A DNA stretch of 64,000 nucleotides. It comes from Chiloscyllium plagiosum (Eukaryota). Shown here piece by piece: positions 2,313 to 55,965 of the stretch. Each line of letters begins with the position of its first letter. Positions within the stretch are counted from its first letter, which is position 1. The DNA is taken from contig NC_057752.1 of NCBI RefSeq assembly GCF_004010195.1, forward strand, positions 15,017,585 through 15,081,584. The letters are read 5' to 3'. The position numbers were made by a program, and so were the translations under genes. The notes under the pieces were generated by a model. It searched no databases. It was not told the origin of the DNA and saw only the letters and a program-made list of their open reading frames with translations.

Positions 2313-2831
2313 ACACTGAAACAACTCCTGATGAATTTAAAGGACCCCATACCAACAACCAGCAGAATGAACATCACATACAAAATACCCTACAAGGACT
2401 GCAACAAACGTTATATTGGATAGACGGGCAGGAAACTAGCCACCAGGATACATGAGCACCAACTAGCCACCAAAAGGCATGACCAACTATCACTGGTATC
2501 CATACACACACATGAGGAAGGATACCAGTTTGACTGGGACAACACATTCATTTCGGGACAGGCTAAACAAAGACACACATGGGAATTCTTAGAGGTCTGG
2601 CATTCAAACCAGAACTCCATTAACAAACATATACATTTGGACCCTATTTACCAACCTCTCGGAGACAGCACCAGAAATGATATCACCCACCACAGCAAAC
2701 CGAGACAGATAAAGATCAAGTGGGGCAGAACACCAATGCTTCACCGGAGGCTCACTGATGATGTGACCTGGCATGGTGATGAAATGTCTGAGAACAAATC
2801 TACTAGCTTAGCGAGCAAAGTTACAACCAAA
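2313..2831 (+). mobile_element. Penelope-like element (Poseidon-type) 3' fragment: GIY-YIG C-terminus plus pLTR
   Basis: Peptide ITYKIPYKDCNKRYIG*TGRKLATRIHEHQ...FDWDN...EFLEVWHS...DPIYQPL; tttgatca direct repeat at 2305-2312 and 2832-2839. Confidence 0.85.
2751..2792 (+). ncRNA. Minimal hammerhead ribozyme motif (slightly decayed) in PLE pLTR
   Basis: CTCA-CTGATGA-t-gtgacc/ggtgat-GAAAT-GTC-TGAG; helix I CTCA:TGAG. Confidence 0.7.
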
Positions 2832-3169
2832 TTTGATCATTATTGTGTGCGCTTCAGGAGTCTGCACTACAGGAGGGATGTGATTGCATTGAAGAGGATA
2901 CAGAGGACATTGACCAGGATGTTGCTGTCGAGAGTTTTAGTTATGAAGAGAAACTGGATAGACTGGGGTTGTTTTCCTTCGAGCACAGGAGATTGAGGTG
3001 GGGTATGATTGAGATGTGTAATATAATGAGGGGCGTAGAATACAATAGAGATTTATTGTCATGCATACTTTTACAAGAAAAATAGAGTGAAAAATTTTAT
3101 AAGTTGCCATACCACGGTGCCTATATTAATGATGGAAGTAATAATGACATAATTTTAAAAAATGAAATT

Positions 3170-3349
3170 TGTAGTGATTGGAATGATGTTCGCCAGGTGG
3201 ACCAATGGCTGACCAATGTAAACAGGACTGTCAGGGGTTCTGTTCACTAGGAGCCAGCTCTGAGCTAGCTGGGTCAGTCTCATGTAATATGCATGTGTAA
3301 ATAAATGGTGACTTGATGACGGGATACCTGCATTCGTGGAATTACTTCA
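3170..3349 (+). mobile_element. Solo LTR (180 bp)
   Basis: TG...CA termini, perfect 5-bp TSD AAATT (3165-3169 and 3350-3354), AATAAA at 3299-3304. Confidence 0.75.
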
Positions 3350-5080
3350 AAATTAAGACAGTTCATCACAGTTCAGTTAACGGCTCCTGGGTTCAGGGAA
3401 AGCTGATTAAGGAATGATGAAATATCCTGAAGATGCAGCCAGGATGAGACTGCCAGTCTGGGATGAGCACGCCACGTTAGGAGGACACCACCATGTCAGA
3501 CTTCTGGAATAATGGGCTGGAAACTTCTGCCAAAGAAGACTGCCATGCCAGGCCAAGACTACCACTCCTGACAAGACTGGCATACGGGCTGCTGGAAGCC
3601 AACTCGTCCCTAGTCTGGGCGAAGCCTCCTGTTCCCCATTTGATGCTCCTCCAAACACTGCCGCCGATCCACTGTCCGTCCCTTTCACTGATCTTTCCGC
3701 TCCTTCAGGTGCCTGGGCCTAGCTGCAGGCCTGGAACTTCAGCCATGCACATCTTTTTAAATTTGTCCTCTCATTTTGGCTCCTTTTCTAAGTGGGTTAT
3801 GGCTTCATCCTAACTATTCTATCCAGCCCACTCATGATTTTGAAAGCCTCAATCAGATCTCTCAGCGTTATTCTCTCCAATGTCCCAACTTCTTCAATCT
3901 ATCCTCAGGACTGAAGTTCATCAAATCGGGAACCATTCAAGCAAATTGCTTCTGCACGGTTTCCAGTGCATTCACATCTTTCCCATAATGTAGTGCCCAC
4001 AACATTACAGTATATAGTGTACAGTACTGTACTGCGGGGTTTTGCAGTTTCAGACTGAGGTTGGGCTGAAAGATGAGTGGAGGCGGCAAGTTGCCGTACG
4101 GCATTGCTGGCTTGGGAATGGTGATGTAGCAAGTATCATTCAAGTCAAAAATTTCAACCACGGCTTTAACTGAGCCAAAGCACGCTCATGAAGCTATATG
4201 ACAGTGCTGGGTCTGAAAAGTCCATGCCAAAATCCCAACCTTTGATGAAAGAAAATGACTGCAGAATTTCATGTTGATGGCATAAAGTATTTAAGTAAAT
4301 GAATGTAAAATAAATTTAGCTGTTTTATATATTAAGCTTTTTCAAATTGGTACCTATTATAAAGGCTGTGTCATTTTTTTGTTTTCTACGTTTTCGATTG
4401 TGGACTAACATGGAACTAGGAATGGTTTAAAATGCAAGGACTGTGGAAACTATTGCTGCCTTTTTCAAAACACATTGCTAAAATTCACTATGTGGTGTTT
4501 ACACTGTTGCTTTGTTGAAGCAGTGGGAGAAAATGTTTGTAAATGAGGAGGCTCCAGGATGCATGTGCAAAATGAAAATTGCTTGGTGATAAGTGGCTGA
4601 TTGGTTTATGCAATTATGATTAGTCATGGATAACAAGTCTCTGGTTCCTGGCCAGCTTAACAGGTTGTGGTTGAGAGCAATACAGGAAAAAAAACCTTCA
4701 GACTGCTGGAAGGACAGGTAGCATGTGTGTTTTGCTCTTTCCCTGCAGTCAAAATGCCTGAAGCCTGAAGAAAGTTATTTTCTTCCATCCGTTGCTATAA
4801 GCTGTTGCCTTTACCCAATGATGAAGAGATTTTCTAGCTAGTGTACCAATCACTTTGTACCTCCTACAAAGAAGTGAAAGAACTAGAGAATGGAGATTGA
4901 AGAACAGAGAGTGCAGAGAAGCAAAGGATCATCTCAACAAACCCTTTAAACTGGTGCCATTGAACTAATATTCCTGTTTTCTTTCCATTCATAAAACCAT
5001 TTTTTTCTTAGTTTGTGAGAAGATTTGTAGCTTGGGTGCTCGTTGCTGTGGTTCTGTTCGCCGAGCTGGAAGTTTTTGTT

Positions 5081-5120
5081 GCAAATGTTTCGTCCCCTGT
5101 CTAGGTGACATCCTCAGTGC
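5081..5120 (-). ncRNA. Minimal hammerhead motif in opposite arm (helix III G>A decayed)
   Basis: Reverse complement GCA-CTGAGGA-t-gtcacct..aggggac-GAAAC-ATT-TGC. Confidence 0.65.
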
Positions 5121-5435
5121 TTGGGAGCCTCCTGTGAAGCGCTTCTGTGGTGTTTCCTCCGGTATTTATAGTGGCCTGTCCCTGCCGCTTCCGGTTGTCA
5201 GTTTCAGCTGTCCGCTGTAGTGGCCGGTATATTGGGTCCAGGTCGATGTGTTTGTTGATGGAGTTTGTGGATGAGTGCCATGCTTCTAGGAATTCCCTGG
5301 CTGTTCTTTGTTTGGCTTGCCCTATAATGGTAGTGTTGTCCCAGTCAAATTCATGTTGCTTGTCGTCTGCGTGTGGACAGGCCACTATAAATGCCGGAAG
5401 AAACGCCACAGAAGCGCTTCACAGGAGGCTCCCAA

Positions 5436-5475
5436 GCACTGAGGATGTCACCTAGACAGGGGACGAAACGTTTGC
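5436..5475 (+). ncRNA. Minimal hammerhead ribozyme motif, intact core
   Basis: GCA-CTGAGGA-t-gtcacct(agac)aggggac-GAAAC-GTT-TGC. Confidence 0.8.
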
Positions 5476-6744
5476 AACAAAAACTTCCAGCTCGGCGAAC
5501 AGAACCACAGCAACCATTTTTTTCTGTTTATCAGTATCAGACTTATGTGTGTGTTTTGGGTTTTAAAAGCGGGTTAGAGTTTTGCTAATTCAGCCATACA
5601 TTGACATTTTATAGTTATTTACTTGTGGTTACGACTTTCTTATTTGTATTAACTAGAAATTCTTGTGAAATACAGGAACCTGGTCAGGGTTTTTTGTTAA
5701 ATTGATTACAATAGCTCTGTAAATTTAGGACTTTGTGTGCTTTGATTAAATCATTACACTTAACTTAATACGGCTCACAATTCAGTGCACTTTTTCCCAA
5801 GTGGGTCGTAATATTATGTTGAAAACAATGGCACATCTGCAGTTTGTCATTAATTTCTGTTAGATAGAACTAGCCTGATTGACGTTACTTTCAGGTGCTG
5901 CGAGAGTAATAGCTTGACAATAGAATTAGATTCTCGGGTCACAGGTGGTAAACTGGCCGAATATGAGAAGGACTGGGTTGGGTCCATTTCAACATTGGGC
6001 AGAACAGGAAATGTTGATATGTCCGTGAGAACAAAGTGTGAATCCTGGGCTTAGTTCAGTGCATATCATCAGATTTTGCAAACTGTACAGAAAGCTCATC
6101 CAAGAAGGAATTTGCTTCAAGGTGACAGAGTAACAACCACTGGGGGAGCAATACTTCTAACTGCCCTATTCTTTGTAAATTTTCTATAGAATCTATAGCC
6201 AATATTTATGATGTCTTTGAGTGTGCAGTTTTACAAACAAAACAGCAAATACTTAGAGTTCAAATAAATCCCTTGCTATTGTGGTTTTGTGTGAATGAGT
6301 GTCACAGGAAGGAAAGGTCTGTACTGGGCGACTGATCACTCAATTACTTTAACATTAGCTGAGATACCGGGGTTTGAGAGGAAAAGGAAAGGCAAGGAAC
6401 AGTTTTTCCGTGTCTTAATACTTGAACAAAAAGTCTATGGGAAAAGAATATTCAAGAATACAAGCTGTCATTTATCTTGGAGTTCAATTTTTGTTTATAT
6501 AGTTGTGATTTTAAATAATGTAATATTAATTTGGAAACTCTTGAACATAATTTAAAAGTCATTTGCTGGAGCTAATGAAATCACGGGTGAAATGTGTTCC
6601 TACATTTGTACACCCTGTCCAAAATCTTGTACACTTGGAATCTAATGGTTGCAGCAGGGTAAGCATATTTGTTCAGACTTTGCTTCACTGATTGTTGTTC
6701 GGTCACTATACCTCAACACCAACCTCCTGAATATTCACAAGAAT

Positions 6745-11271: not shown

Positions 11272-11735
11272 AAAGTTAAAAATCACACAACACCAGGTTA
11301 TAGTCCAACAGGTTTAATTGGAAGCACACTAGCTTGGAGCGACGCTCCTTCATCAGGTGATAGTGGAGGGCTCAATCCTAACATAGGATTTATAGCAAAA
11401 ATTTACAGTGTGATGTAACTGCAATTATACATTGAAAAATCGATTGTCTGTTAAGCCTTTCATCTGTTAAAATACAGTGATAGTTTCACTTCTTTCATGT
11501 GTAAATCACAAAACCCTTTATTTTAAAGGGTTAGCTGTTAACAATGGTGATGGCTGGACAATATGTTGAAGGTGTTGGCCCCCTGTGTTCTCTGTCTATG
11601 CCATGATGTTTAGATTGATTCTAATTGAAAAAGTAAGACAACGCAGTTTTACATAAATTCATGCAGTTTTTGAGCTCAGAGTTCTACATGAATGCATGCA
11701 GTTTTTGAGCAAAGTACAATGTAACCCTGCAAGTA
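11272..11735 (-). mobile_element. Probable PLE pLTR of another family, with decayed hammerhead at 11327-11359
   Basis: Reverse complement CAC-CTGATGA-a-ggagc(gtc)gctcc-[GA missing]AAG-CTA-GTG; helix I CAC:GTG. Confidence 0.6.
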
Positions 11736-15185: not shown

Positions 15186-16137
15186 AATCCACCCTAGTCA
15201 GTAGGCCCTATATTTAGCATCTGATCTGGAGTGCAGCACTGAAGCATCAGCCTAGATTTTGTACACCAATCTCTTGGATCCACAGGGACAAGAATGTTAC
15301 CAACTGTGAAATGCTGTAGCACGCCTCTTAGCTCAAGAACTTATAAAGATGGTAACAAATGCTAGCTTTCCCACAATATCCCATGAAAGAATAAAAATAG
15401 TTCGGAAACTGTACAGAAAATTTGACTTTGAAAGCAGCAACATTTAATCCAAAAATAAAAGTCCTGCAATGTCTTCTGTTCCTGATTCCACGCCATTCCC
15501 TCTGGTTTCCCCATGGATCTATTCTTGTCCCTGGCCTATTTCTCATGCACATGCTGTCCCTCAGTGGTATTGCCCAAAAGCGAAGTGTTAGTTTTCATAC
15601 GGACGTTGACCACAGCCTGCTCTACCTCACCATCATCTCTATCTCAACCCCTCTACTAGAGTCATACAGCGTGGAAACAGACCCTTCAATCCAACTGGTC
15701 CATGCTGACCAGGTTTTCCAAACTAAATTAGTCCCATTTGCCTGCGATTGGCCCATATCCATGGATAGTTTTCCTATTCATATACCTGTCCAAATATCTT
15801 GTAAATGTTGTAACTGTGCCTGCAGCTACCACTTCCTCTGGCAGTTCATTCCAAATATATACCACCTGCTGTGTGAAAAAGTTGCCACACAGGTCCCTTT
15901 TAAATCTATGCCCTCTCACCTTAAATCTATACCCTCTAGTTTTGGACTCCCCTACCCTCTGGAAAAGACCTTGGTTATTCGTCTTGCCTATTTCTGACAT
16001 GATTTTCTAGACCTCAATAAAAGTCTCAGCTTCTCTTTATAATGTAAACCATCCAGTCTCGGTAACATCCTTGTAAACTTTTTCTGCACCTTTTCCAGTT
16101 TAATAGCATCCTTCCTATAGCAGGGTGACCAGAACTG

Positions 16138-18230
16138 TTGCTGAAAAAGTGCAGCAGGTCAGGCAGCATCCAAGGAACAGGAGAATCGACGTTTTGGGCA
16201 TAAGCCCTTCTTCAGGAATGAGGAGGGTGTGCCAAGCAGGCCAAGATAAAAGGTAGGGAGGAGGGACTTGGGGGAGGGGCATTGGGAATACGATAGGTGG
16301 AAGGAGGTTAAGGTGAGGGTGATAGGCCGGAGTGGGGTTGGGGGTGGAGAGGTCAGGAAGAAGATTGCTGGTCAAGAAGGCGGTGCTGAGTCCGAGGGTT
16401 GGGACTGAGATAAGGTGGGGGGAAGGGAAATGAAGCTGGAGAAATCTGCATTCATCCCTTGTGGTTGGAGGGTTCCTAGGTGGAAGATGAGGCGCTCTTT
16501 CTCCAGGCGTCGTGTTGCCATGCAGGTCCTTGGCGATGGAGGAGGCCAAGGACCTGCATGTCCTTGGCGGAGGGGGAGTTAAAGTGTTCAGCCACGGGGC
16601 AGTTGGGTTGGTTGGTGCGGGTGTCCCAGAGGTGTTCTCTGAAACGTTCCGCAAGTAGGCGGCCCCTCTCCCCAATGTAGAGGAGGCCACATCAGGTGCA
16701 GCGGATGCAGTAAATGACGTGTGTGGAGGTGCAGGTGAATTTGTGACGGATATAGAAGGATCCCTTGGGGCCTTGGAGGGAGGTGAAGGGGGAGGTGTGG
16801 GCGCAAGGTTTGTATTTCTTGCAGTTGCAGGGGAAGGTGCTGGGAGTGGAGGTTGGGTTGGTAGGGGGTGTAAGACCATAAGACCATAAGACATAGGAGT
16901 GGAAGTAAGGCTATTCGGCCCATCAAGTCCACTCCGCCATTTAATCATGGCTGATGGGCATTTCAACTCNNNNNNNNNNNNNNNGGCGGAAATGACGAAT
17001 GTATCTGGAGGTTGGTGGGGTGGTAGGTGAGGACCAGTGGGGTTCTGTCCTGGTGGCGATTGGAGGGGTGGGGTTCAAGGGCAGAGGAGCGGGAAGTGGA
17101 GAAGATGCAATGGAGAGCATCGTTGACCACGTTGGAGGGGAAGTTGCGGTCTTTGAAGAAGGAGGCCATCTGGGTTGTTCGGTATTGGAATTGGTCCTCC
17201 TGGGAGCAGATGCAGCGGAGGCGGAGGAATTGGGAATATGGGATGGCGTTTTTACAGGGGGCAGGGTGGGAGGAGGTGTAATCTAGGTAGGTAGTAAATG
17301 TCTGTATTGAGTCGGTCGCCCGAGATAGAAATGAAGAGGTCTAGGAAGGGGAGGGAGGAGTCTGAGACGGTCCAGGTAAATTTGAGGTCAGGGTGGAAGG
17401 TGTTCGTAAAGTGGATGAACTGTTCAACCTCATGGGAGCACAAGGTAGCGCCAATACAATCATCAATGTAGTGGAGAAAAAGTTGGGGGGGTGGGGCCAG
17501 TGTAGCTGCGGAAGATGGACTGTTCCACATATCCGACGAAGAGGCAGGCATAGCTGGGGCCCATGCGGGTGCCCATGGCTCCTCCTTTCGTTTGGAGGAA
17601 GTGGGAGGATTGGAAAGAGAAGCTGTTCAGAGTGAGGACCAGTTCAGTCAGTCGAAGGAGGGTGTCAGTGGTAGCATGCTGGTTGGTTCGGGAGGAAAGG
17701 AAGAAGCAGAGGGCTTTGAGGCCTTCGTGATGGGGGATGTAGGTGTATAGGGACTGGAGTCCATGGTGAAGATAAGGCGTTGGTGGCCGGGGAAGCGAAA
17801 ATCATGGAGGAGGTGGAGGGCGTGGGTGGTGTCCCGAACGTAGGTGGGGAGTTCTTGGACTAAGGGGGACAGGACAGTGTCGAGGTATGCAGAGATGAGT
17901 TCGGTGGTTGCAGGAGCAGGCTGAGACAATGGGTCGGCCGGGGCAGTCAGGTTTGTGGATTTTAGGCAGGAGGTTGTCTGCTGGTTTGATAGTGAGGTTG
18001 GGGTTGGAACAGAGGGAGTGGAGGGCTGCACGTTCCGAGGGTGAGAGGTTGGAGTGGGTGAGAGGAGTGGACAGGTTGAGGTGGTCAATGTCGCGGCGGC
18101 AGTTGGCTATGAAGAGATCGAGGGCAGGTAGGAGGCCAGCACGGGGTGTCCAGGTGGATGGGGAGTGTTGGAGGCGGGAGAAGGGGTCGTCGGAGGGTGG
18201 CCGAGAATCCTGGTTGAAGAAGTTCCAAGG
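16138..18230 (-). mobile_element. Neptune-type Penelope-like element, 5'-truncated and frameshifted (RT, Cys-rich linker, GIY-YIG, pLTR)
   Basis: LIFTMD, FLHYIDDCIG, FHPDLKFTW...LPFLD, FPCNCKKYKPCAH linker, VIYCIRCT*CGLLYIGE; pLTR HHR at ~16186-16217 with GAAA>AAAA. Confidence 0.9.
16871..16969 (-). mobile_element. CR1 3' tail nested in the PLE, next to an assembly gap
   Basis: (TAAGACCA)n tail plus CR1 3' UTR. Confidence 0.8.
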
Positions 18231-18265
18231 AGCAGTATTCCAAAAGTGGCTTCACCAATGTCTTG

Positions 18266-18378
18266 CCGAAAGTGAGGACTGCATATGCTGGAACTTAGAG
18301 TCGAGAGTGTGATGCTGGAAAAGCACAGCAGGTCAGGCAGCATCCAAGGAGGAGGAAAATCGACATTTCAGGCAAAGG
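18266..18378 (-). mobile_element. Short PLE pLTR+tail insertion, truncated inside the HHR
   Basis: TSD ccaatgtcttg (18255-18265) and ccaatgtattg (18379-18389). Confidence 0.8.
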
Positions 18379-18799
18379 CCAATGTATTGTACAGCCCACG
18401 AGGTACCAACTCCTATACTCAATGCTGTGACCAACGAAGGCAAGTGTGCTAAATGCTGCCTTCACCACCCTTTCTACCTGCAACCTCACTTACAAGGAAC
18501 AATGTATCTGCACCCCTCAGTCTCGCTGTTTGGCAATAATCCCCAGGGCCCTACTATTAACTGTGCAAATTTCATCAGACAATATAATGTCTCTGCTCAA
18601 AAAAGGAGAGAGCACTAAGCCAGCAGACTGGAGATCAGTCAACCTAACATCAGTAGCAGTGAATATGCATAAAATTAATGGGACAAAATTTATAATTCCC
18701 AAGAATGGCATAGATTTTGAAAAGATTAATTTTATCTGACAACTTTATTTATTATATGGAGATTGTATTGATAATGGAGATTGCAATGCGTGTTACAGA

Positions 18800-20470
18800 T
18801 ATTACAAAGATACAGCTATAAGGAGACCAAAATCGGAAACTTAACATTCAGCATATTTGACCTTTTGGAAAGACAGGAGGGTAGGAAGAGGTGATAGGGT
18901 AGCACTGTTAATAAGAGATTAAATGAGAACAGTTATGAGAGATGATCAAAGCTCAGATAATGTAGAATCCATTTGAATGGAGATTTTATTAAAAATCAGC
19001 AAGAGAAAGAAGGCATTGGTATTAGTATATAGACCCCAAATAGTAGCCACATTGTACGAATGTGTATATATCAACAAATAATAGGACCATGCCAAAAAAA
19101 ACAATAATTCTGGGTGACTTTAATCTTCATGTTGATTGGGTTAATCAAGTTGTAAAGGTATGAAAACAAATTCATAGAGTGATTACAGATAATTTCCTAG
19201 AGCAATATGTCATGGAGGTAACTTGGTGGCAGGCTGTCCTGGATCTGGTAATGGTTAATGAGGCAGGTTTAAGGAGAATGTTAAGTTGAAAGGAAAAGCA
19301 TATCAAGAAGCAAAAGTCCATTGATAGTTCAGAAAGTTGGAATAAGAATTCAGTAAAGGAGGACAAAAAGATAATAAAGACAAAGAAAATAAACTTTGAG
19401 GCCAAACTAGTGAGGGATTTAACTGACAATGAGAGCTGCTTTAAATGTGTAATAAGAAAGAGAAAGGTCAAAGTGTGCAAAGGCCCCTTCTGGGGAGATA
19501 GTTACAGGGAACAAAGAAATGACAGAGCAGTCAAACAGATATTTTGCGTCAGTCTTTACAGCGGAAGATACTTCAAACATCCTAGTAATACTAAAGCATG
19601 CAGGGGAGGAATTAAGTACCATCATCATCACTAGATAAATAGTATTAGACATACTAATGGGGCTAAAAGCAGATAAGTCCCTTAGCCCTGATGGCTTGCA
19701 TCCTAAGATCTGAAAAGAAGTTACAACATAGTGGCTGCATTGGTTGCAATTTTCCAAACAAAAATCCTTAGATTCTGGAGAATTACCAGAACATTGGGAA
19801 ACTGTCGAAGTGAAACATCGATTCAAAAATGGAGGAAAGGTACCCAGTCCTGAAGAAAAGGGTTATACCCAAAATGTCGACTTCTGCATCTCCTAATGCT
19901 GCATGGCTTGCTGTGTTCTTCCAGCCTCCTGCCTTCTACTTTGGATTCCAGCAGCTTTTTTTTATCTCTAACCATTTCATTGAAGGCAATTCAGAGAAAG
20001 CTAACTAGCATGATCCCTGGTATGAAGGGATTGTCTTAAAGGCAAAGGGGTAGGGACTCTACTCACTGAAAGAATGAAAGGTGATCTCATTGAAACTTGT
20101 AGGGTTTTTAAGAGACTTGACAGGATAAATGCTGAGAGGATATTCCCGCTCATATCTAGGGTCAGAGGACATAATCTCAAAAAAAGAGGGGGACCAATTT
20201 AAGACCGAGATGAGGAGGAATTTCTTCTCTCAAACGATTGAGAATCTTTGGAACTCTTTGCCATAGAGAGTATGGGGGTAGAGTATTGTATGTATTTAAG
20301 GCTGAGATAGATAGATTCTCGATCAGAAATGAAATCAAGGGTTACTGGGAAAGGGCAAGAAAATGAACGTGATGAGTGTTGGATCAGTCATGATCCTATT
20401 GAAAGGTGGAGCAGGTCCCAGAGGCCGAACAGCCTATTCTTGTTCCGATATTTTATGGTTTTGTTATTGT
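18800..20470 (+). mobile_element. Old, internally deleted CR1 ORF2 and 3' UTR
   Basis: ILGDFNLHVDW, YFASVFTAED, KSLSPDGLHPKI and CR1 3' end motifs. Confidence 0.75.
19846..19973 (+). mobile_element. PLE pLTR/tail with decayed hammerhead (19846-19882)
   Basis: AGTC-CTGAAGA-aaa-gggt(tat)accc-AAAAT-GTC-GACT; helix I AGTC:GACT. Confidence 0.65.
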
Positions 20471-21440: not shown

Positions 21441-21578
21441 TGTTTATGCCCTTCCTGAAGAAGGGCTTATGCCCGAAACGTCGATTCTCCTGTTCCTTGG
21501 ATGCTGCCTGACCTGCTGCACTTTTCCAGCAACACATTTTCAGCTCTGATCTCCAGCATTTGCAGCCCTCATTTTCTC
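21441..21578 (+). mobile_element. Single-arm PLE pLTR+tail insertion
   Basis: 14-bp TSD CATGTTTATGTCTA at 21427-21440 and 21579-21592; same pLTR family as 16138-16220. Confidence 0.9.
21453..21484 (+). ncRNA. Minimal hammerhead ribozyme motif, intact core
   Basis: TC-CTGAAGA-a-gggc(ttat)gccc-GAAAC-GTC-GA. Confidence 0.8.
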
Positions 21579-21869
21579 CATGTTTATGTCTAGTATTGTA
21601 TTCTCCATTCAGTGGAATGGGACTGAACTTGCAGGTTTAGCTGGCTCTCTGTTCTTTACATTATGAAGGACACTGTTCAAGATCACTGAGTGAATCTTTG
21701 AAATGTTGTATGTGAACTCAGAACCCTGTAAGGACTCTGCCGGTTAACACATTGGATGTTGCTGACATTGTTCATTCAGTCCTTTGTTTTCTTATCTTAA
21801 CTGACTGCCTTCACCACCAGCCCACCACAGGATGTAAGGTCTATCCCATTTCATTACTCTGACCCAGAA

Positions 21870-40200: not shown

Positions 40201-41470
40201 TGATGTAGCAAAGTGGAGGTCGACACCCTTCTGATAATTAAAACCAAAACACCCAGAAAAGCTTGCCTCGCTTTGTAATATGATAAAGAGGTGTGACAAG
40301 GGGTACAGCCTACCTCTCGATCCCCAATCTGTTATAAAGGAGTGGTTAAATGAAATGAAATCCTTTCACTCACTCTTTCATCAACAAGTAACAATTTATT
40401 CATTTAACCCTAACAGTGAACAAATTAACAGAAATACTAACAAGGTAAAAACAATGACTGCAGATGCTGGAAACCAGATTCTGGATTAATGGTGCTGGAA
40501 GAGCACAGCAGTTCAGGCAGCGCCCAAAGAGCAGCGAAATCGACGTTTCAGGCAAAAGCCCTTCATCAGGAATAAAGCTGAAGGGCTTTTGCCCGATACG
40601 TCGATTTCACTGCTCTTTGGGCGCTGCCTGAACTGCTGTGCTCTTCCAGCACCATTAATCCAGAATTACTAACAAACCAAACAATTCCTCTCTAACTACC
40701 TATTCCCAAATAAAGCAAGGTTCTAATAGGATGCTGTTTGAATAAATACAAGTCCCACTTTTATAAATCCAAGTAATAAGAAAACAATAAATTAAAACTT
40801 AGTCTCTCAAAGTTCACTCAATGGGTCTTCCAGAACTTTCTGTATCTTCTTCCATTGTCTTCCTCTGTCTGAAATATCTTCTCTGACGTTTTCTCTAAAA
40901 TTTCTTTTGCCTGGAATATTATCGAAAAGTACTGTGCTATGTTTCAGAGATTGTGTTCTGTTTTACGGAGCATGGCGATTTCTTGTGAGAGCCCAATATT
41001 TATTTCTCAGATGGCAGGTTTGCTTTCTCCTCAGATGGCAGTTGGTTCTGCCTGATTTTCCAAAATGCCCTCATCTTTATACCTTTGATGGCATATTAAT
41101 TTCTTTACAATCGATTGGTTTGAGGTCATCAAAACCAACAGTTTTAAATTTAATTAGGTTTTGGTATCCAGGGCCTGGTTTAAATTAATTAGCTAATATT
41201 CGGGCTGGTGGCCTTAGCATCAAAACAAGCCGAGGTTGCCAACAACACTGCCAATTGATACATGTGTTTCAATTTGAACACCTGCAATACTACTGCCCAC
41301 AGACATTGATTTTTAAATCTCCAAGCTTTGGAAAGCACATCATCTCTTAAAGGGACCAAGCACTTTATTAACTCCTGCNNNNNNNNNNNNNCCCCCAACC
41401 ACCATCATTTTTACAAACCAATTCTGGCTTCCCGCCTTCCACTTCATGAGTACTTTACACAACTTTGTAA
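40201..41470 (-). mobile_element. LTR-like non-coding insertion in CR1 (contains a 13-N gap)
   Basis: Interrupts the FADD/TK motif; tttatt at ~40395 (minus-strand polyA signal); clean TSD not seen. Confidence 0.5.
40444..40666. mobile_element. Palindromic PLE pLTR insertion
   Basis: TSD cagaaatactaacaa (40429-40443) and cagaattactaacaa (40661-40675); minus-arm HHR core intact, plus-arm truncated with GATA. Confidence 0.9.
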
Positions 41471-42626: not shown

Positions 42627-42792
42627 TGACATCACCACAAACCCAGGAACCCCATCCAGGAGAAAGATATAAATAGAAAGCAAGAGACAACAGCTTCGCT
42701 TTACTTGGAGGTCGCCACTGATGATGTTACCTAGCCAGGTAATGAAACGTCTGGATATCAAACCTACAGCTCAGCGAGCAAACCTACACCCT
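42627..42792 (+). mobile_element. Poseidon-type pLTR-only insertion
   Basis: TSD aaggaggatgaa (42615-42626) and aaggaagatgaa (42793-42804); homologous to the pLTR at 2680-2830. Confidence 0.85.
42715..42754 (+). ncRNA. Minimal hammerhead ribozyme motif, intact core
   Basis: CCA-CTGATGA-t-gttacct(agcc)aggtaat-GAAAC-GTC-TGG. Confidence 0.82.
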
Positions 42793-43624
42793 AAGGAAGA
42801 TGAAATAAGTAATGCACACATGATTAAGAGCAATCAGTACTGGACTTCATAATTTGCATTATTCAAAATTAAAGATTTCAAAAAAGAAATCTGTGTATGC
42901 TGTGAACACAGACTGCTCTCAACACCTGCCTACCGGATAGTCACGAGCTATGATTTAAAAAAAAATTCTGCACATTAGCTTAAATCTTTTTGCTGTGGTT
43001 CTTGATGCTTCACCAATGGGAACAGTTTTTTCCTATTCTCTCTGTCCAGATGCCTCATAGATTTGATATAAGTATTCAAAACCATCAACTTCACTCCGTC
43101 TTCTCTTCTTCAAGGAAAACACTCCGTCTTCTCTAATCTGTCCACATAACTGCAGTTCTTCACCCCTCGAACCATTATCATAAATTGGCAGCCTTTCTAA
43201 AGCCTTGACATCTTTTCTGAAGTGTGGTGCCCAGAACTGGATCCAATAGCCCAGCTGAGACCAAGCCTTTTTTAAAGATTTATTATAACTTCCTTGCTTT
43301 TGTACTCTTCCTCTATTTATAAAGCCCAGGATTAAGCGGACCTTATTAACTGCTTTCTCAACCTCTCCAGCCACCTGCGCATAAACCCCCAGGTCCCTCT
43401 GCCCCTATACCCTCTTTAGAATTTTATGCCCTTTTTAGCTTTTGTACTCAGAGGGATTTTGTACTCTGGGACACCTTTATTCCTGTATTCCATCTAGACT
43501 TGCACATTCCAAGTAATAAGTAACCCCTGTTTTTCCTGCCAAAATATATAACCTCATAAGTATCTGTACTGAACATCATTTGTCCATTAAGCAATTTTAT
43601 TACTATCCTATTGTAATTTTTCAT

Positions 43625-45380: not shown

Positions 45381-45576
45381 AGATTAGAGTGCTGCTGTAA
45401 AAGCACAGTAGATCAGACAGCATCCGAGGAGCAGGAAAATCAACATTTCGGGCAGGAGCCCCTCACCAGGCTTTTGCCCAAAACGTTGATGTTCCTGCTC
45501 CTCGGATGCTGCCTGACCTGCTGTGCTTTTCCAACACCACTCTAATCTCCAGCATCTGCAGTACCCACCTTCGCCT
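45381..45576. mobile_element. Palindromic PLE pLTR insertion (tail on right, HHR cores destroyed)
   Basis: 14-bp TSD AAATTATTGCCTTA at 45367-45380 and 45577-45590. Confidence 0.88.
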
Positions 45577-46025: not shown

Positions 46026-46080
46026 GGAGGAGAAAGTGAGGTCTGCCTGACCTGCTGCGTTTTTCCAGCAACACATTTCC
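46026..46080. mobile_element. 55-bp PLE mini-insertion (minus-strand tail fused to plus-strand pLTR piece)
   Basis: 13-bp TSD GCCTCCACTGTAT at 46013-46025 and 46081-46093; junction overlap ctgc. Confidence 0.85.
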
Positions 46081-46499: not shown

Positions 46500-49040
46500 A
46501 GAAATAGATAAGGGCAGGGTTAAGTATGTAAATGGTCCCAGAGTATAGTGAACAGGTTTGAGGAATTGGAAGTAGAAATTGCTCGGGGGGATATGAAATA
46601 GTAACATTGTCAGAAATGTGGCTCAAGCCAAAATAGGGCTGAATATTTAACAGGGAGAAAGTGAGGACTGCAGATGCTGGAGTACCAGAGTTGAAAAATG
46701 TGGTGCTGGAAAAACACAGCAGGCCAGGCAGCATCTGAGGAGCAGGAGAATCAACGTTTTGGGCATAAGCCCTTCTTCAGGAATCCTGAAGAAGGGCTTA
46801 TGCCCGAAACAACAATTCTCCTGCTCCTCGGATGCTGCCTGGCCTTCTGTGTTTTTCCAGCACCACATTTTTCAACTCTGAATATTTAACATCCTGGGCT
46901 ATGAAAGTTTTTAGTATAAACAAGGCGGATAAAAGGAAGCAATCTTGGTCAAAAATAGTCTCATTGCAGTTCCTGAATTGGAATCTATATGGCTGGAGGT
47001 GAGAAATAGGAAAGGGGCAGTGACCTTGTTGGGTATTTATTATCGACCTCCCAATAGAGGGGAGGAAGTAGAAGAGAATATTTGTAGGCAGATTATGGAA
47101 ATCTGCAGGAGAAGCAGGTTTGTGATAACTGGTGATTTCAATTACCCTAGGATAGACTGGGAAAAAGAGGTAGAATATGGGATATGGAAAGGGAGAAATG
47201 CCTGCATTATGTGCAGGAGAACTTTCTGGAACAGTGTTAGGGAATAAGGCAGGCCAAGTGGGGAACATTTGAGTGAGGAGGCATTTAGGAAATAGTGATC
47301 ACGATATAATAAGGTTCAATATAAGTTGGAAAAGGGGAGATAATACAGGCTCAATGGTACAACTTTGAGGGGAGCATAGGAGGAGAGGGACTTTGGGTTT
47401 CAAGTGCAGATTCTCTGAAAGCGCCAGGCAAATTGAAACAGTTGATAAGAAGGCTTATAGGATCCTTGGATTTATAAATAAAAGCATAGTATAAAAGCAA
47501 GGGAGTTATGCTACACCTCTACAAATCATTGGTTAGACCACATTTGGAGCATTGTGTTCAGTTCTGGGCACCTTATTTATGGAAGGATGTTAAAGCCCTG
47601 GGGAGAGTAAAAAGGAGATTTTACTGGAATGATAGCAGGAATGAGGGAGTTTACATACAAGGAAAGATTAGAGAAATTGGGCTTACTTCTCCTTGGAGCA
47701 GAGATGTTCAAATTATGAACAAATTGACAGGGTAAAGAAGGATATTCTGTTTCCACTAGTTGGTATGTCAGTAATTGGGGGTCACAATTTCAAGATTGTC
47801 AGCAAGAGAGCGAGGAGTGAGATGAGGAGAAACTTCTTTATACTGGGAGTTATTTGGATTTAGAATGCTCTGCCTGGGAGAGCAGTGAACGTGGATTCCA
47901 AAGGAGGTTTCACAAGATAGCTGGATATATATAAGTGGAAGTGGCATTGTCAAAAAGTATAATTGCTCTGGCCACTTGCACTCAATTTACCACCAATTGG
48001 GAAGAAAAAACATCGGTGTTGCGTTCAGTCCACCTATTGGTATGATCTGTATTAAGTAGAGGTAAAGCATATGTAAAAGAATATAAAGCTATCACGAAAC
48101 ATAAACCCACTGTTGCAGCCTCTATTAAGTCAGATTCTGTTTCTCATTTTCATTTGAAAACCTGACCTTCCTGAACAGTGTTACTGTGTTACTTATAAAC
48201 TGTTAATATCCGGGCTAAATAGATGCACTGTTGTTTTGTATGTTTAGTATCCATCTGCAAATCTTAAAATATAGGGCCCTGAAAAAGTTACATATGTACA
48301 TTTTAAACTTTTGCAACTGATGTTTTATCTCTAGGTTGTTTAGAAAATATGAATATGAGGAGTGATGCAGGAGAACATTGAAAGACAATATAAAATAGGG
48401 GGTACGAGTCTAAAGGGAGTGTGTAGGGACCGGGGTGTATATCTGCACAGATCATTGAAAGTGGTAGGACAGATGGAGAGAACAGTTAATAAAGCATACA
48501 ATGTCCTCAACTTTATTAATAGGGGCATAGAGTACAAGAGCAAGGAGGTGATATTGAACTTGTATTAGATCTCAGCTGGAGTATTGTGTACAGTTGTGGG
48601 TGCCACGTTATAGGAAAAATATAAAGATACTAGAGAGAGTACAGAAGTGATTTCCAAGAATGATTTCAAGAATAAGACACTATGAGGCTTGATTGACGAA
48701 GTTGGGACTGTTCCCTTTGAAGAGAAGAAGGCTGAGAGGAGATAGCTGGAGGTTTTCAAAATTATGAACGCGCTGGATAGACTAGGTAGGGATAAGCTGT
48801 TCCTGCTCTTAACAGGAACAAGAAAGAGAGGGTATATAGTTAAAGTGAATTGTAAAATAAGTGAGGGTGATATGAGAAAAATCATTTTTCACACAATCAT
48901 TAATTAAAGTACGAAATGCACTGCCTAGAAATGTGGTGGAGGTATGTTCAACTGAAGTATTCCAGAGGGCAGTGGGGATGATTATTTGGAAACCAGTGGT
49001 GTGCAAGGATAAGGGGGAAAGGAAGGAGACTGGCACAATA
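46500..49040 (+). mobile_element. Old CR1 fragments (EN and two 3' regions)
   Basis: ESIWLEVRNRKG...YYRPPN...ITGDFNYPRIDW; YKSLVRPHLEHCVQFWAPY. Confidence 0.75.
46653..46880. mobile_element. Palindromic PLE pLTR insertion inside an old CR1 EN region
   Basis: 14-bp TSD CTGAATATTTAACA at 46639-46652 and 46878-46891; centre cttcaggaatcctgaag; both HHRs decayed. Confidence 0.92.
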
Positions 49041-50584: not shown

Positions 50585-51068
50585 AAAGTTTGGGTGAAGA
50601 TTTGTAGCTCGGGTGCTCGTTGTTGTGGTTCTGTTCGCCGAGCTGGGAATTTGTGTTGCAGACGTTTCGTACCCTGTCTAGGTGACGTCCTCAGTGCTTG
50701 GGAGCCTCCTGTGAAACGCTTCTGTGATGTTTCCTCCAGCATTTGTAGTGGTTTGAATCTGCCGCTTCCGGTTGTCAGTTCCAGCTGTCCGCTGTAGTGG
50801 CCGGTATATTGGGTCCAGGTCGATGTGCTTATTGATTGAATCTGTGGATGAGTGCCATGCCTCTAGGAATTCCCTGGCTGTTCTCTGTTTGGCTTGTCCT
50901 ATAATAGTAGTGTTGTCCCAGTCGAATTCATGTTGCTTGTCATCTGAGTGTGTGGCTACTAAGGATCACAGCGCTTCACAGGAGGCTCCCAAGCACTGAG
51001 GATGTCACCTAGACAGGGGACGAAATGTCTGCAACACAAATTCCCAGCTCGGCGAACAGAACCACAAC
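50585..51068 (-). mobile_element. Poseidon-type PLE insertion with inverted pLTR (same family as 5009-5511)
   Basis: 12-bp TSD AGTCTTCCTACC at 50573-50584 and 51069-51080; HHRs at 50658-50697 (minus, GAAAC-GTC-TGC) and 50993-51032 (plus, GAAAT-GTC-TGC). Confidence 0.92.
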
Positions 51069-52370
51069 AGTCTTCCTACCTCCAGGCTAGGAGGCCTAGG
51101 TTGTTATCCCACCTTCTCCAGAGTTGTGTCATAACATTACTGAACAGGTTGATTAAAAATATCTACCACCCACTCAGGGTACCTTTGCTGCACTGATCAT
51201 TTAAACCATTTCCTCGTCTCATTTCTTCCCATCTTCATGCTTTCAGGTTTGATGGCAACAAACTCAAATGCACATAATTCACACAATCTTAGTCATTCAT
51301 ACCTAGACTTGGCTCAACCATGTTATGGTTTACCATCCTTTTCTCTCTGCTGCCAAAGCCTGCAGGATCATGTTGAGGGCAAGAGCAAGTCTGGGTTCCT
51401 GCTGTTCATGATTCATGTCATTTTCAAACCCTCTACTTCTGTCCCTACTTCCCACCTGTATCTCTTCTGTTATGTGGCTTGTCAATGAGGCAGCAGTGTT
51501 TGCAGTGCTTTATTACTTCAATTTTAAGATAATCAACCTCATCATCATTTCCCATTATGTTTGAGACATGTGCAATGGGCTGAATAGCCTCCTCCTCTGA
51601 TCATATCATCATCTCCCCTCTACTGTCCAGCTGAATGGACTGTGCTTTGTTCCACTTCCAATGATCCAAGCACAGCCAACAGATCACCAGCAGTAGCTTC
51701 TCTTCCCCACCCACACTCTCATTAATTGAATTTGCCAAGGCTTGTGTCCTTAACTCCTCATGTTCATAGATGTGTTACACATTGGTGGCATTGTTGACAG
51801 AGACAGGATCAGAAACAACATGTTTGCTAATGAGACTCAAATCTCTCCCTTCACCATTGTTCAGAGCCAAAACCAACTCCACATTGTTAGTCTAGAAGTC
51901 TGCACTCAAGTCATAGATGAGTCACAATTAGTGTTTCCTCTTCAGTTTTTTTTTTGTTGCGTGCAGTCAGTTCATTTCAATTTGTACCTTGAATTTGTTT
52001 TTCCTGGATGCACAAGGGCGTTGTCCAAAATGGAATAGTTGCCTCAATGGCCATAAAGTGCATGCAGCTTTGAATAAACATGCTGAACCTTCTTTCAGTT
52101 GAAAAACAGCAAGGTTGAGGCAATTTTCATAGCCCCTGCTATAAATTTCACTCATTTACCACTGACTCTATCCAATATCCCCAAGTAAGTGCTTGGTCTA
52201 GTACCAGTGAATTCATTCTGTTTCACAGGAGATTTTAAACTAATTTAGCAGGGAAATGGGTCACAGAGTAGATGTAAAGTTAGGAGAGCAAGGTCTAATT
52301 GCGTATAGAAGTAATACTAGGACAGTACAGTTGGAGGAGAAGACATGCATAGGGTAATGTACAGGGAAGG

Positions 52371-52479
52371 CAAAAGTGATGACTGCAGATGCTGGTGAAG
52401 GGCTTTTGCCCGAAACGTCGATTTTCCTGCTCCTGGGATGCTGCCTGACCTGCTGTGCTTTTCCAGCACCACTCTAATC
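52371..52479. mobile_element. PLE insertion: 25-nt minus-strand tail joined to plus-strand pLTR arm
   Basis: TSD aatgtacagggaagg (52356-52370) and aatgcacagggaagg (52480-52494). Confidence 0.88.
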
Positions 52480-53483: not shown

Positions 53484-54755
53484 AGAGACATAATCCTACA
53501 GCATGGAGACAGGCCCTTTATCCCAACATAGTCCAGGCCGACCATATTGTCCATCCACTCTAACCCCATTTCCTTGCACTTGGACATCGTCTAAACCTTT
53601 TATATCCATGCTTTTGTCTGAATGCCTTTTAAATGTTGTCTAATTACTTGCCTCAGCTACTTCCACTGCTGCTCATTCCATATGTGTACCACCCTCTGTG
53701 TAAAAAAAAACAAAGTTGGTGCCTCATGTTCCCTTTTATGCTTCCCCCTCTAACGTTAAACTGATGCCCTCTAGTCCTCGATTCTGCAACCCTGGGAAAA
53801 AGACTGAGTGCATTCACCCTATCCATGCCCTTCATGATCTTGTACACTTCAATAACATCCCCTCTCAGTCTCCTACGCTTTAAAGAAAAGCTTCCTAGCT
53901 TGTCCAACCTCTCCCTATAACTCAGACACTTGAGTCCTGGCAACATCCTTGCAAATTTCTTCTGTGCTCTTTCCAGTTTAATAACATCCTTCCTGTTGCA
54001 AGTTGACAAAAACTGAACACAATACTCCAGATGTGACCTCACCAACGTCCTGTACAACTGCAACATAACTTCCTAGCTTCTATACTCAATGCCCTGACTG
54101 ATGAAGGCCAGTGTGCCAAAAGCCTCCTTCAGTGCCCTGTCTACCTGTGATTCTACTTTCAGAGAACCATGCATCTGAACTCCAAAGTCCCTCTGTGTTA
54201 CTACAATCTTTAAAGTCCCTGTTCACTACAAACCTCCTACCTTGATTTGACTTTTCCAAAATACTCTTATCTATATTAAACTCCATTTGATATTTCTTGG
54301 CCCACTACCCCAGCTGATCAAGGTCCTGCTGTAATTTCTCATAACCTTGCTCATTGTCCACAATACCTCATATTTTAGTGTCATCTGCAAACTGACTAAC
54401 TATGCCTTCTATATTCTCATCCAAATCATTGTTATAGATAACAAATAGCAACGAGCCCAGCATCGACCCCTGAGGCATACCACCAGTCACAGGTCTCCAG
54501 TTAGACAAGCATCCTTCCACAATTACCCTCTGCTTCCTACCATGAAGCCAATTAAATATTAAATTTTCCAGCTCCCCCTGAATTTTGGATTAGTGGTGCT
54601 GGAAGAGCACAGCAGTTCAAGCAGCATCCGAGGAGGAGCAAAATCGACGTTTCAGGCAAAAGCCCTTCATCAGGAATAAATGCCAGGTGATCGAACCTTC
54701 CAGAGTAGCTTGCCATATGGAACCTTATCAAAGGCCTTACTGAAATCCATATAGA
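53484..54755 (-). mobile_element. CR1 RT to 3' end
   Basis: YRTLVRSHLEYCVQF...RGHQFNVRG; QFADDTKI. Confidence 0.85.
54581..54680 (-). mobile_element. PLE pLTR arm with hammerhead (54644-54675)
   Basis: Reverse complement TC-CTGATGA-a-gggc(tttt)gcct-GAAAC-GTC-GA. Confidence 0.82.
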
Positions 54756-55451
54756 CTTGCTACTTGTAGCAAGTCTTTTAATAGTAGTGTTGTGAGAATT
54801 CAGGGCCAGCGTATTTCCTGTAAGAGTGAAGAGCATCGCCAGCAAGCCCAGGGAGTCCTGAATGATAATGGATATCAATAGTTAGATAAAGAAAAGGGAG
54901 AAAACATGTATCAAGTACAGAGCATTAAAAACAGTGGAGGCCCTTCAAAAGTACAGAGAGGTTACCTAAACAGGAAATCAGGAGGGCAAGGAGGAACCAT
55001 GGAATATCTTTGCAAATGGGATCAAGAAAAATCCCAAGACTTTTTACATGCATATTACGAGGTTTATTAGGAAAAGAGTGGGACCTATGAGAGACCAAAT
55101 GGTCAACGTGTACATGGGGCAAGTGGACGTGGGTGAAGTCTTAAATCATCTGTATTCACAGAAGAGAAAGACATTTTAAGCGGGGACTTCAGTTGTGAGA
55201 GTGAGGTTATAGAACACGTTAAGGTTCATAAAGAGGGGATGTTAGATGTTTTAGCGAGCATAGAGGTGCATAAATCCCCGGAGCCTGATGAGAGGCTGCT
55301 ATGGGAGCCAAGGGAGGAGATTTCTGGGGCCCTGGTGGCGGTATTTAATATTTTGCTGGCCACCAAATGATTGGATGATAGCTAATGTGGTTCCTTTGTT
55401 CAAGAAAGACAGCAAGGATAGGCCAGGTCATTACAGACCAGTTAATCTTGT

Positions 55452-55965
55452 GCTGAGGCTTGAAGAACAGCATCTCATTTTCTGCTTGGGGACCCTGCAG
55501 TCCCTAGTACTCAATATTGAGTTCAATAGCTTTACAGCCTGATTCCTTCCTTCCATGTTTTTACCCACCCCACACCCAGTCATGTTATGGCATGCTTTTG
55601 GCGCAGTCACCCATTCTCACGTAATCCTGTTTTCTCATTTTCTCTTAGTCTTAGTTCTTATTATCACTTGTTCAGCTTTTCTTCTGTCCTGGCCTGCTAT
55701 CCATAATCTCCTTGTTTACCTCCCCACTTCATATCTCTTTCTCCCTCCGGGCTCCATCTCCACCTATCCACTCACCCTTCCCAATCCTCCCCTCATCCAA
55801 CTTGTGGTTCAGCATAAATACGACCTTATCTGAGCTGCTAACAGTTCTGAAGAAGAATCATTAGACTTGAAACTTTAACTGGGCTTTCTTCCCACTGATG
55901 CTGCCAAACATGCTGAGTTTCTGTTTTCTGTTTTAGATTGTCAGCATCAGCAGTTCTTTGTTCGA
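55452..55965 (+). mobile_element. Old Neptune-type PLE 3' end with decayed hammerhead (55843-55880)
   Basis: RLEEQHLIFCLGTLQSLVLNIEFNSF*; AGTT-CTGAAGA...GAAAC-TTT-AACT. Confidence 0.75.

What the first reader, a model, noticed from the sequence alone, without database searches (positions are those of the whole stretch)
2751..55880. About 20 minimal hammerhead motifs from several PLE families with covarying helix I
Seen: all share CTGANGA + one extra base (A or T; three As at 19846) + helix II + GAAA + a tiny palindromic helix III (ACGT or AGCT) + cleavage triplet. Helix I changes between families but always pairs: CTCA:TGAG (2751), GCA:TGC (5436, 50658, 50993), CCA:TGG (42715), AGTC:GACT (19846), AGTT:AACT (55843), CAC:GTG (11327), TC:GA (21453, 33693, 33652, 40540, 54644). 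Helix II also covaries (gggc/gccc, gttacct/aggtaat, ggagc/gctcc). Further remnants lie at ~32585-32620 and ~36460-36492. Established: minimal type I hammerheads with palindromic helix III occur in PLEs and are thought to cleave as dimers. Inference: the covariation indicates selection on the fold in the source elements.
Basis: partly seen in the sequence, partly recalled or inferred. Interest (0 to 1): 0.72.

Follow-up and report, generated by a model that had tools for sequence, protein, structure and literature searches.

The report
Penelope hammerheads with fossil cut sites
The small hammerhead motifs are real end-pieces of a known kind of jumping gene (Penelope-like elements); most short copies begin at the motif's front edge, likely the capped start of uncut RNA, and a few copies elsewhere in this genome are fused to U6 RNA exactly at the predicted cut, which suggests that these weak ribozymes do cut in the germ line.

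Summary
Observation largely confirmed. The window holds 25 homologous arms (about 19 insertions); 24 carry hammerhead sequence, but only 12 keep both core boxes, so 'all share' is overstated. They are pseudo-LTR stubs of two Neptune-type families (A with older C/D, and E) and one Poseidon-type family (B). They match the minimal hammerheads described in 2014. Helices I and II covary between families, while genomic copies decay at CpG. The genome holds about 240,000 intact cores above control. Cleavage and the dimer were not assayed, and inverted pairs cannot form cis dimers. The scan reported points 1, 3 and 4 before, in this genome and others; the U6 and cap leads came from those notes and were re-tested here.

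The parts
2751..2792 (+). Family B3 hammerhead (C3 2755, N17 2788), helix I CTCA:TGAG, decayed helix II; follows a Poseidon-type GIY-YIG remnant at about 2340-2750
5042..5514 (.). Family B1 head-to-head insertion, 14-bp TSD; hammerheads N17 5084 (-, ACAT) and 5472 (+, ACGT); TATAAAT at 5386-5392, ATG at 5445-5447
11327..11359 (-). Family E hammerhead (C3 11356, N17 11330), helix I CAC:GTG, AGCT; GAAA box broken by a 2-nt deletion; TATAAAT at 11394-11388
11298..11318 (-). Family E poly(A) signal ATTAAA (11318-11313) with poly(A) tails joined at 11301 and 11298 in RNA reads of family members
16136..16219 (-). Family A1 hammerhead (C3 16215, N17 16188, G12A) and tail to the first 3' end site; TCATTCC initiator-like word at its 5' edge
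16450..18250 (-). Broken Neptune-type PLE ORF: RT motifs, CxxxxCxxC-type linker, GIY-YIG
18306..18380 (-). Family A stub starting inside helix II (no CUGANGA)
19846..19940 (+). Family C (older A-type) hammerhead, helix I AGTC:GACT, G12A, ATGT, with tail
21452..21580 (+). Family A1 stub, intact hammerhead (C3 21455, N17 21482), long tail, TSD of about 14 bp
32546..32620 (-). Family D remnant, decayed core
33556..33782 (.). Family A2 palindromic insertion, two intact hammerheads on opposite strands (N17 33654 - and 33722 +), TSD of about 14 bp
36460..36533 (+). Family D remnant, decayed core
40444..40664 (.). Family A2 palindromic insertion; minus arm intact (N17 40542), plus arm truncated with GATA
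42627..42794 (+). Family B2 stub: TATAAAT 42668-42674, hammerhead 42715-42754 (N17 42751, helix I CCA:TGG, 7-bp helix II), ATG 42724-42726, 12-bp TSD
45381..45576 (.). Family A palindromic insertion, both cores broken, 14-bp TSD
46043..46080 (+). Family A tail only
46653..46877 (.). Family A1 palindromic insertion; minus arm G12A, plus arm lacks U16.1; 14-bp TSD
50585..51070 (.). Family B1 head-to-head insertion; hammerheads N17 50661 (-) and 51029 (+); 14-bp TSD
52371..52479 (+). Family A2 stub with an inverted tail piece; first box broken; 15-bp TSD
54584..54679 (-). Family A2 stub, intact core (N17 54646)
55843..55920 (+). Family D hammerhead, helix I AGTT:AACT, decayed helix II, ACTT

Best explanation
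These are minimal hammerheads in pseudo-LTR stubs of Neptune-type and Poseidon-type Penelope-like elements; the ribozyme likely forms the first nucleotides of the element's capped RNA, most stubs are likely run-off copies of that uncut leader, and a minority of RNAs were likely cut at the predicted bond in the germ line. Shown: the motif, its families, covariation, the neighbouring RT/GIY-YIG ORFs, the clustering of 5' and 3' ends, the extra G, the U6 junctions and the family-E poly(A) tails. Inferred: Pol II starts at the first base of helix I (family A, 32 nt before the cut) or a few bases earlier (family E). The element's RT starts at one of two internal sites 55-100 nt behind the cut and runs to the cap, copying it as an extra G. 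The cDNA then integrates with a TSD, folds into a head-to-head pair, or jumps to another RNA to give a mini-tandem. When two cores pair through ACGU or AGCU, probably helped by the element's protein, the cut removes the capped leader (in family B also the AUG) and leaves a 5'-OH that can be ligated to U6. The cut would then act as an off-switch on the mRNA rather than as a step needed for copying. My odds: identity 0.95; start at the ribozyme edge 0.75; cutting in vivo 0.8; off-switch role 0.35.
For: Genome counts: 45,146 exact family-A 31-mers, control 0; 262,719 core-pattern matches against 25,163 control. ORFs. Covariation: 49 of 60 helix I cells are Watson-Crick, and 6 of 100,000 within-clade shuffles reach that; 90.7% of cells paired, covariation score 0.749, 0 of 500 shuffles, slid controls at most 0.198. 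5' ends: 93 of 215 A arms at -36..-23; among 109 non-inverted arms 39 fall there against 8 and 6 in the flanking 14-nt windows (p 2e-9); 40 of 74 E arms at -43..-22. Extra G: 67 of the first 100 of 5,359 copies with a non-C base before ATTCC have G, background 0.26; 10 of 17 plain and 10 of 13 inverted loci. Two 3' end sites in A, E and B, as for the tail and RT starts of PAc (PMC11167929). U6: 7 of 7 pattern hits join at the first base after the A cut, 0 at -15..-44, 1 of 1 at the E cut, one more among 30 Rfam loci; 8 insertions, 9 junctions, all with five T. Mature U6 ends in five U with a cyclic phosphate that RtcB joins to 5'-OH RNA (PMC6789731). In B, A9, the extra T and G10.1 spell ATG, as in PAc.
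Against: No cleavage or start-site assay was possible. RNA reads of one sample of another coded organism span the cut on both strands, with no pile-up of starts or ends; the library is 3'-tagged and weak for this. Family B shows no 5' clustering: 2 of 23 ends near the ribozyme edge, and no U6-B junction was found. In most plain loci the extra G is also the last base of the TSD, so target choice could explain part of it. About 11 of 30 U6 loci are joined at or near the start of a tRNA-like SINE and 2 inside a PLE ORF, so U6 fusion is not specific for ribozyme ends. Helix I has near-zero pairing probability in folded A and E leaders, and the helix III duplex is worth only -1.7 to -2.5 kcal/mol. 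The representatives for the covariation tests were picked by hand (18; 14 after the 4 E rows were dropped for misalignment). Frangieh et al. found no RNA-seq reads starting or ending at the PAc cut.
Confidence: 0.7

Rival explanations
1. Monomer-release model (Cervera and De la Pena 2014): the hammerheads cut tandem precursors into unit-length or circular RNAs, which are the normal templates for insertion.
For: Cleavage at the predicted bond seems to occur in vivo. Same-strand pairs exist: 3 of 12 loci hold two cores 196-242 nt apart.
Against: Ordinary copies do not start at the cut. Only 14 of 215 A ends were called at -3..+3, and of 10 plain copies called at -3..+8, 4 still show hammerhead sequence upstream and 2 are tandem tail repeats. 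In 8 mini-tandems the second unit starts at -30..-39 six times, at -6 and +12 once each, never at the cut. HHR mutants did not affect PAc insertion in vitro (PMC11167929).
Confidence: 0.12
2. The 5' clustering marks a place where RT stalls or is displaced on a longer RNA (a folded dimer or bound protein at the ribozyme), not a transcription start.
For: The spread runs from -36 to -23 rather than one base. Family A has TTATCT rather than a TATA box about 30 nt upstream. No RNA starts were seen.
Against: The peak sits on an initiator-like TCATTCC, with a sharp upstream drop and an excess of non-templated G. Family E has TATAAAT at the expected distance. RT arriving from the 3' side would already have melted helix I before reaching -32.
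Confidence: 0.12
3. The motif is kept mainly as a protein-binding, promoter or start-codon element, and cleavage is an incidental by-product or a passenger.
For: Naiad and most Chlamys PLEs lack canonical hammerheads and still proliferate (PMC8557442). In B the core overlaps the ORF start. Activity in vitro is low (PMC4209133).
Against: All catalytic positions and compensatory pairs are kept across three clades, also in A and E where the motif is untranslated. U6 junctions fall on the scissile bond.
Confidence: 0.06

Closest known systems
Minimal type I hammerheads (min-HHR) in pLTRs of metazoan PLEs (Cervera and De la Pena 2014, PMC4209133; parts 1-2 of 4 read, supplement searched by term, file 1 not searchable)
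   Same: CUGANGA, one extra base, G10.1-C11.1, GAAA, palindromic 15.2-16.2 without loop 3, short helix I, dispersed single or opposite-strand copies, several families per genome.
   Different: Copy number here is far higher (about 240,000 intact cores above control against about 4,000 in coelacanth and 9,000 in Xenopus, by a different search). Helix II is 4-5 bp in A, C, D and E. Copies start at the ribozyme's front edge, not at the cut.
PAc (Poseidon of Anolis carolinensis), Frangieh et al. 2024, PMC11167929 (parts 1-2 of 4 read; supplements searched, no hits)
   Same: ORF starts at helix II (family B), cut about 27 nt after the AUG, two internal RT starts bounding the tail, uncut RNA as the main insertion template.
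   Different: That paper found no RNA ends at the cut and, in the parts read, did not map 5' ends of copies. Families A and E are Neptune-type, with the ribozyme upstream of the ORF.
U6/L1 chimeric pseudogenes made by RtcB (Moldovan et al. 2019, PMC6789731; passages read)
   Same: U6 ending in five T joined to a retroelement and retrotransposed.
   Different: L1 junctions are variable; here all 9 PLE-pLTR junctions fall on one bond, the predicted ribozyme cut.
Non-LTR retrozymes (bioRxiv 10.64898/2026.07.22.740005, part 1 of 5 and passages; PMC7229834, search listing only)
   Same: Short non-coding hammerhead units derived from PLE pLTRs.
   Different: Retrozymes are head-to-tail tandem arrays. 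The window's copies are solo or head-to-head, and the mini-tandems seen elsewhere have variable junctions at the ribozyme's front edge.
Variant hammerheads that cleave as dimers (Lunse et al. 2017; not held, known only from its title and the review PMC6765202, section 11 part 2)
   Same: Diminished stem III, PLE association.
   Different: Could not check whether these families or this animal group are among its examples.

Membership tests
min-HHR of metazoan PLEs | CUGANGA, GAAA and UH core | tested here: met
   Met in family majorities and in 12 of 24 window arms; the rest are decayed or truncated.
min-HHR of metazoan PLEs | One nucleotide between A9 and 10.1 | tested here: met
   A in A, C, D, E and T in B.
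min-HHR of metazoan PLEs | G10.1-C11.1 pair | tested here: met
   10 GC, 3 GU, 1 AU of 14 rows.
min-HHR of metazoan PLEs | Palindromic 15.2-16.2, no loop 3 | tested here: met
   ACGU in A and B, AGCU in E; departures are CpG transitions.
min-HHR of metazoan PLEs | Compensatory changes across families | tested here: met
   hand-picked representatives, no R-scape.
min-HHR of metazoan PLEs | Located in the pLTR of a PLE | tested here: met
   Follows RT/GIY-YIG ORFs and precedes the ORF start in 381 exact junctions.
min-HHR of metazoan PLEs | Self-cleavage as a dimer, none as a monomer | not testable with these tools
   Only indirect support for cleavage; nothing here separates dimer from protein-assisted monomer.
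Neptune/Nematis-type EN+ PLE (families A, E) | CX2-5CxxC linker before a C-terminal GIY-YIG (PMC8557442) | tested here: met
   CNRKKCKTC in A, CHGRRCKTC in E; GIY-YIG by Pfam, one of two A proteins above cut-off, E not matched.
Neptune/Nematis-type EN+ PLE (families A, E) | RT phylogeny | not tested
   No reference PLE set was on hand; Neptune versus Nematis is not resolved.
Penelope/Poseidon-type PLE (family B) | No zinc-finger linker; ORF start at helix II as in PAc | tested here: met
   Linker without cysteine motif in the 3 least broken of 6 translated pieces; ATG at A9. Pfam did not match the B endonuclease piece.
EN+ PLE insertions | Inverted pLTRs, optional 30-40 bp tail, TSD | tested here: met
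Non-LTR retrozymes | Tandem array of at least two units, each with a complete hammerhead | tested here: not met
   No such array in the window; 15 of 230 sampled A copies had a same-strand neighbour within 600 nt.
Rfam hammerhead families | Match to a curated covariance model | tested here: not met
   No hammerhead family among 20 matches at E up to 10.

The most novel reading that the evidence does not exclude
PLE pseudo-LTRs work like compact retroviral LTRs. The cap sits at the hammerhead's first base, RT primes inside the 5' pLTR and makes a strong-stop-like cDNA that either integrates as a 95-130 bp stub or jumps to another RNA, a poly(A) signal just behind the ribozyme closes an R-like region in family E, and the dimer- or protein-dependent hammerhead is a dose-sensing decapping switch on the element's own mRNA, whose 5'-OH products are fossilised as U6 fusions.
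Probability: 0.3. Interest if true: 0.78.

Novelty: new member of a known kind. Interest (0 to 1): 0.5.

Why it matters
The role of hammerheads in endonuclease-positive PLEs is described as unclear (PMC8557442), and the one biochemical study found no RNA ends at the cut (PMC11167929). A genome with hundreds of thousands of copies gives a record of RNA ends. It points to a start site at the ribozyme's front edge and to real cleavage at the predicted bond, and it yields exact constructs and coordinates for testing whether the cut silences the element. The motifs as such are not new.

Tried and rejected
Rfam gave only hairpin-type miRNA models below threshold on the palindromes. PDB sequence searches with an A RT piece and an E piece found nothing. 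No RNA holder was listed for the stretch. Run X21 laid no reads, and the contig runs X1 and X3 cannot show ends. No host exon was identified among 14 window ORFs by Pfam; one matched a LINE-type endonuclease. A subfamily artefact for the 5' pile-up was checked by printing upstream flanks: a few copies had pLTR-like upstream, most had unrelated or inverted flanks. The MAFFT alignment of all 18 representatives put family E one column off, so E was left out. The first hexamer count for E used a faulty expression and was redone. A cryptic type III fold upstream of the core was rejected by inspection (no room for stem I). A genome-wide map of mini-tandem junctions was not obtained; only the 12 loci bear on it. 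Literature searches: hammerhead + Penelope + shark, 1 review (listing only); Penelope + Neptune + shark genome, 0; start site, template jump or strong-stop, no paper making the link in the listing; U6 + RtcB + ribozyme, 2 papers on L1/SINE; Penelope + U6 chimera, 1 unrelated; pLTR + polyadenylation signal, 1 review (listing); papers since 2024. Subscription papers, Repbase and Lunse 2017 were not visible.
Full report
1. Observation. Every named position holds hammerhead-type sequence. A type I descriptor finds 6 perfect motifs and 9 with at most one core mismatch in the window, against means of 0 and 0.53 in 15 dinucleotide shuffles. Homology to natural copies finds 25 arms, one of them tail only. 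Six insertions are head-to-head pairs with target-site duplications of about 12-15 bp, so the arms stand for about 19 events. Twelve of the 24 hammerhead-bearing arms keep CUGANGA, GAAA and UH, and 8 also keep ACGT. Rfam has no matching hammerhead model.

2. Families. Coordinates below count from the first base after the predicted cut (0). Family A (helix II GGGC/GCCC, helix I ATTC:GATT or GAAT) follows an ORF with RT motifs, a CNRKKCKTC linker and a GIY-YIG domain. C and D share its tail and look older. Family E (GGAGC/GCTCC, AGCT, helix I CAC:GTG or TAC:GTA) follows an ORF with CHGRRCKTC and a YIGET motif; Pfam did not match that piece. A cysteine motif in the RT-EN linker marks Neptune and Nematis (PMC8557442, passages). 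Family B (6-7 bp helix II; helix I GCA:TGC, CCA:TGG, TCA:TGA) follows an endonuclease without that linker. Its extra T is the T of an ATG, as in Poseidon PAc (PMC11167929). No RT tree was built. In A the ORF begins about 135 nt behind the cut.

3. Abundance. The genome (3.56 Gb; earlier notes call it shark-type, which I did not test) has 45,146 exact copies of one 31-mer, control 0, and 262,719 matches to the bare core pattern against 25,163 for the reversed control. In 138 random 10-kb stretches (1.33 Mb) there were 230 A tails above a score cut (of 273 found), 75 E and 27 B. That extrapolates to roughly 610,000, 200,000 and 70,000 arms. The window is ordinary for this genome.

4. Covariation. 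Among 18 hand-picked natural representatives, positions 2.1-2.3 pair in 16, 17 and 15 of 18, position 2.4 in 11, and 2.5-2.6 in 1 and 3. Over 15 distinct helix I types, 49 of 60 cells are Watson-Crick; shuffles within clades average 38.5 and reach 49 in 6 of 100,000. On a 14-row alignment without E (dropped because MAFFT misplaced it), 90.7% of cells pair, the covariation score is 0.749 (0 of 500 shuffles) and slid controls reach at most 0.198; the count of pairs with two-sided change was not above shuffles (109 of 500). In 93 A copies in register, CpG positions vary by 10-24%, including G12 (14%) and the helix III bases (20% and 24%), against about 1-6% at most other fixed core positions, some of which were filtered on. 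Selection thus acted on source elements, and the copies decay.

5. Ends of copies. 3' ends are bimodal in all three families: about +62 and +98 in A (202 copies), +55 and +92 in E (56), +42 and +76 in B (17). This matches the optional tail and the two RT starts of PAc. 5' ends were mapped for 216 of 230 A arms (14 dropped at gaps or locus edges, 1 more as a likely other subfamily): 93 of 215 lie at -36..-23 with a peak at -31, and 79 of 161 events have an end there. Among 109 non-inverted arms the count is 39, against 8 and 6 in the flanking windows. Position -32 is the first base of helix I and the A of TCATTCC, an initiator-like word (consensus recalled). In E, 40 of 74 ends lie at -43..-22, about 30 nt behind TATAAAT. 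B differs: 2 of 23 ends are near the ribozyme edge, and most copies reach past the TATA box. A TATA box with an initiator in a pLTR was noted in a rotifer PLE (PMC3846280, passages), and the Drosophila Penelope start lies in the pLTR (PMC2377424, passages). Among 30 loci it was 10 of 17 plain and 10 of 13 inverted, and in at least four inverted junctions the G is not supplied by the other arm; in plain copies it is usually also the last base of the TSD. Of 12 loci where the tail runs into the ORF, 8 are mini-tandems; their second unit starts at -30..-39 six times and never at the cut.

6. Evidence for cutting. This lead came from earlier notes. Two of the 30 best Rfam U6 loci run from U6's five T straight into position 0 of an A tail. 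A pattern open to junctions between about -14 and +16 gave 7 hits, all at 0; the stretch from -15 to -44 gave none. E gave one hit, at its own cut, and B none. That makes 8 insertions and 9 junctions in several subfamilies; their flanks are unrelated apart from PLE arms. Mature U6 ends in five U with a cyclic phosphate, and RtcB joins it to 5'-OH RNA (PMC6789731, passages); 5'-OH is what a hammerhead leaves (established chemistry). Against specificity, about 11 of the 30 U6 loci are fused near a SINE start and 2 inside a PLE ORF. Either ligation or a template jump would still need an RNA end at that exact bond.

7. RNA. No RNA holder was listed. Raw reads of one single-cell poly(A) sample of another coded organism (about 2% of the run) cover family A on both strands across the cut, with no pile-up of ends. 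On family E, 452 and 367 reads carry poly(A) at 11298 and 11301, 12-15 nt behind ATTAAA, where the DNA is not A-rich and where no genomic 3' end fell among 56 copies. The hexamer is ATTAAA or AATAAA in 47 of 54 readable copies (6 of 60 unreadable). Depth continues across the cut, so most of these RNAs appear uncut. The RT start sites lie behind this poly(A) site, which fits priming in the 5' pLTR.

8. Dimer. In folded leaders helix II is stable in A and E, helix I has near-zero probability in A and E and 0.3-0.5 in B, and the four-base helix III duplex gives -1.7 to -2.5 kcal/mol. A free monomer is unlikely to cut. The window's pairs are on opposite strands and would form long hairpins. Same-strand pairs 196-242 nt apart occur in 3 of the 12 loci and are the natural test substrates. 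Published activity is low, even for dimers (PMC4209133), and protein-assisted for PAc (PMC11167929).

9. Mechanism. Shown: motif, families, covariation, end clustering, extra G, U6 junctions, poly(A) use. Inferred: a capped start at the ribozyme's edge, internal priming, run-off to the cap, then integration, fold-back or jump. Occasional cleavage would remove the cap, and in B the start codon, so I favour an off-switch over monomer release, because ordinary copies and mini-tandems do not begin at the cut. The off-switch is the least supported step (about 0.35).

10. Novelty. The motifs meet every testable feature of the 2014 minimal hammerheads and are new members of a known kind. My searches of the open literature showed no paper on the start-site clustering, the U6 fusions or the poly(A) signal, but Lunse 2017, subscription journals, Repbase and one supplementary file of PMC4209133 were out of reach. 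The scan itself reported all three before; those notes are not independent support. I had reached the start-site reading and the poly(A) result before seeing the matching notes; the U6 and cap tests and the term 'strong-stop' follow them. Interest 0.5.

Noticed in passing
L222, L229, L230, L234, L239, L242-L247 (U6 loci): About 11 of 30 U6 copies are fused at or near the start of a tRNA-like SINE, the family also seen in the window at 12917, 34134 and 58901.
   Followed up: no
L236 and L240: U6 fused to internal positions of the Neptune-type endonuclease region.
   Followed up: no
L225: U6 copy followed directly by a tRNA-like sequence.
   Followed up: no
L153 and family E, cut +5 to +75: The poly(A) hexamer lies partly in a hairpin in the short fold and is unpaired when TGTTGGACT pairs with AGTCCAACA further on; a possible conformational switch.
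   Followed up: partly
family A3 copies, 47-48 nt after the cut: AATAAA in 18 of 218 A copies only; other A subfamilies have none there.
   Followed up: no
window 33585-33791, 46686-46880, 40478-40666, 5042-5514: Head-to-head insertions fold into near-perfect hairpins of 189-473 nt, possible double-stranded RNA sources; 56 such pairs among 230 sampled A arms.
   Followed up: partly
L045 minus strand, about 5695-5767 in reverse coordinates: A 36-nt tandem repeat made from the family-C tail.
   Followed up: no
window 26843-27460 and other places: Many LINE fragments; one ORF matches Exo_endo_phos. No host exon was recognised.
   Followed up: partly
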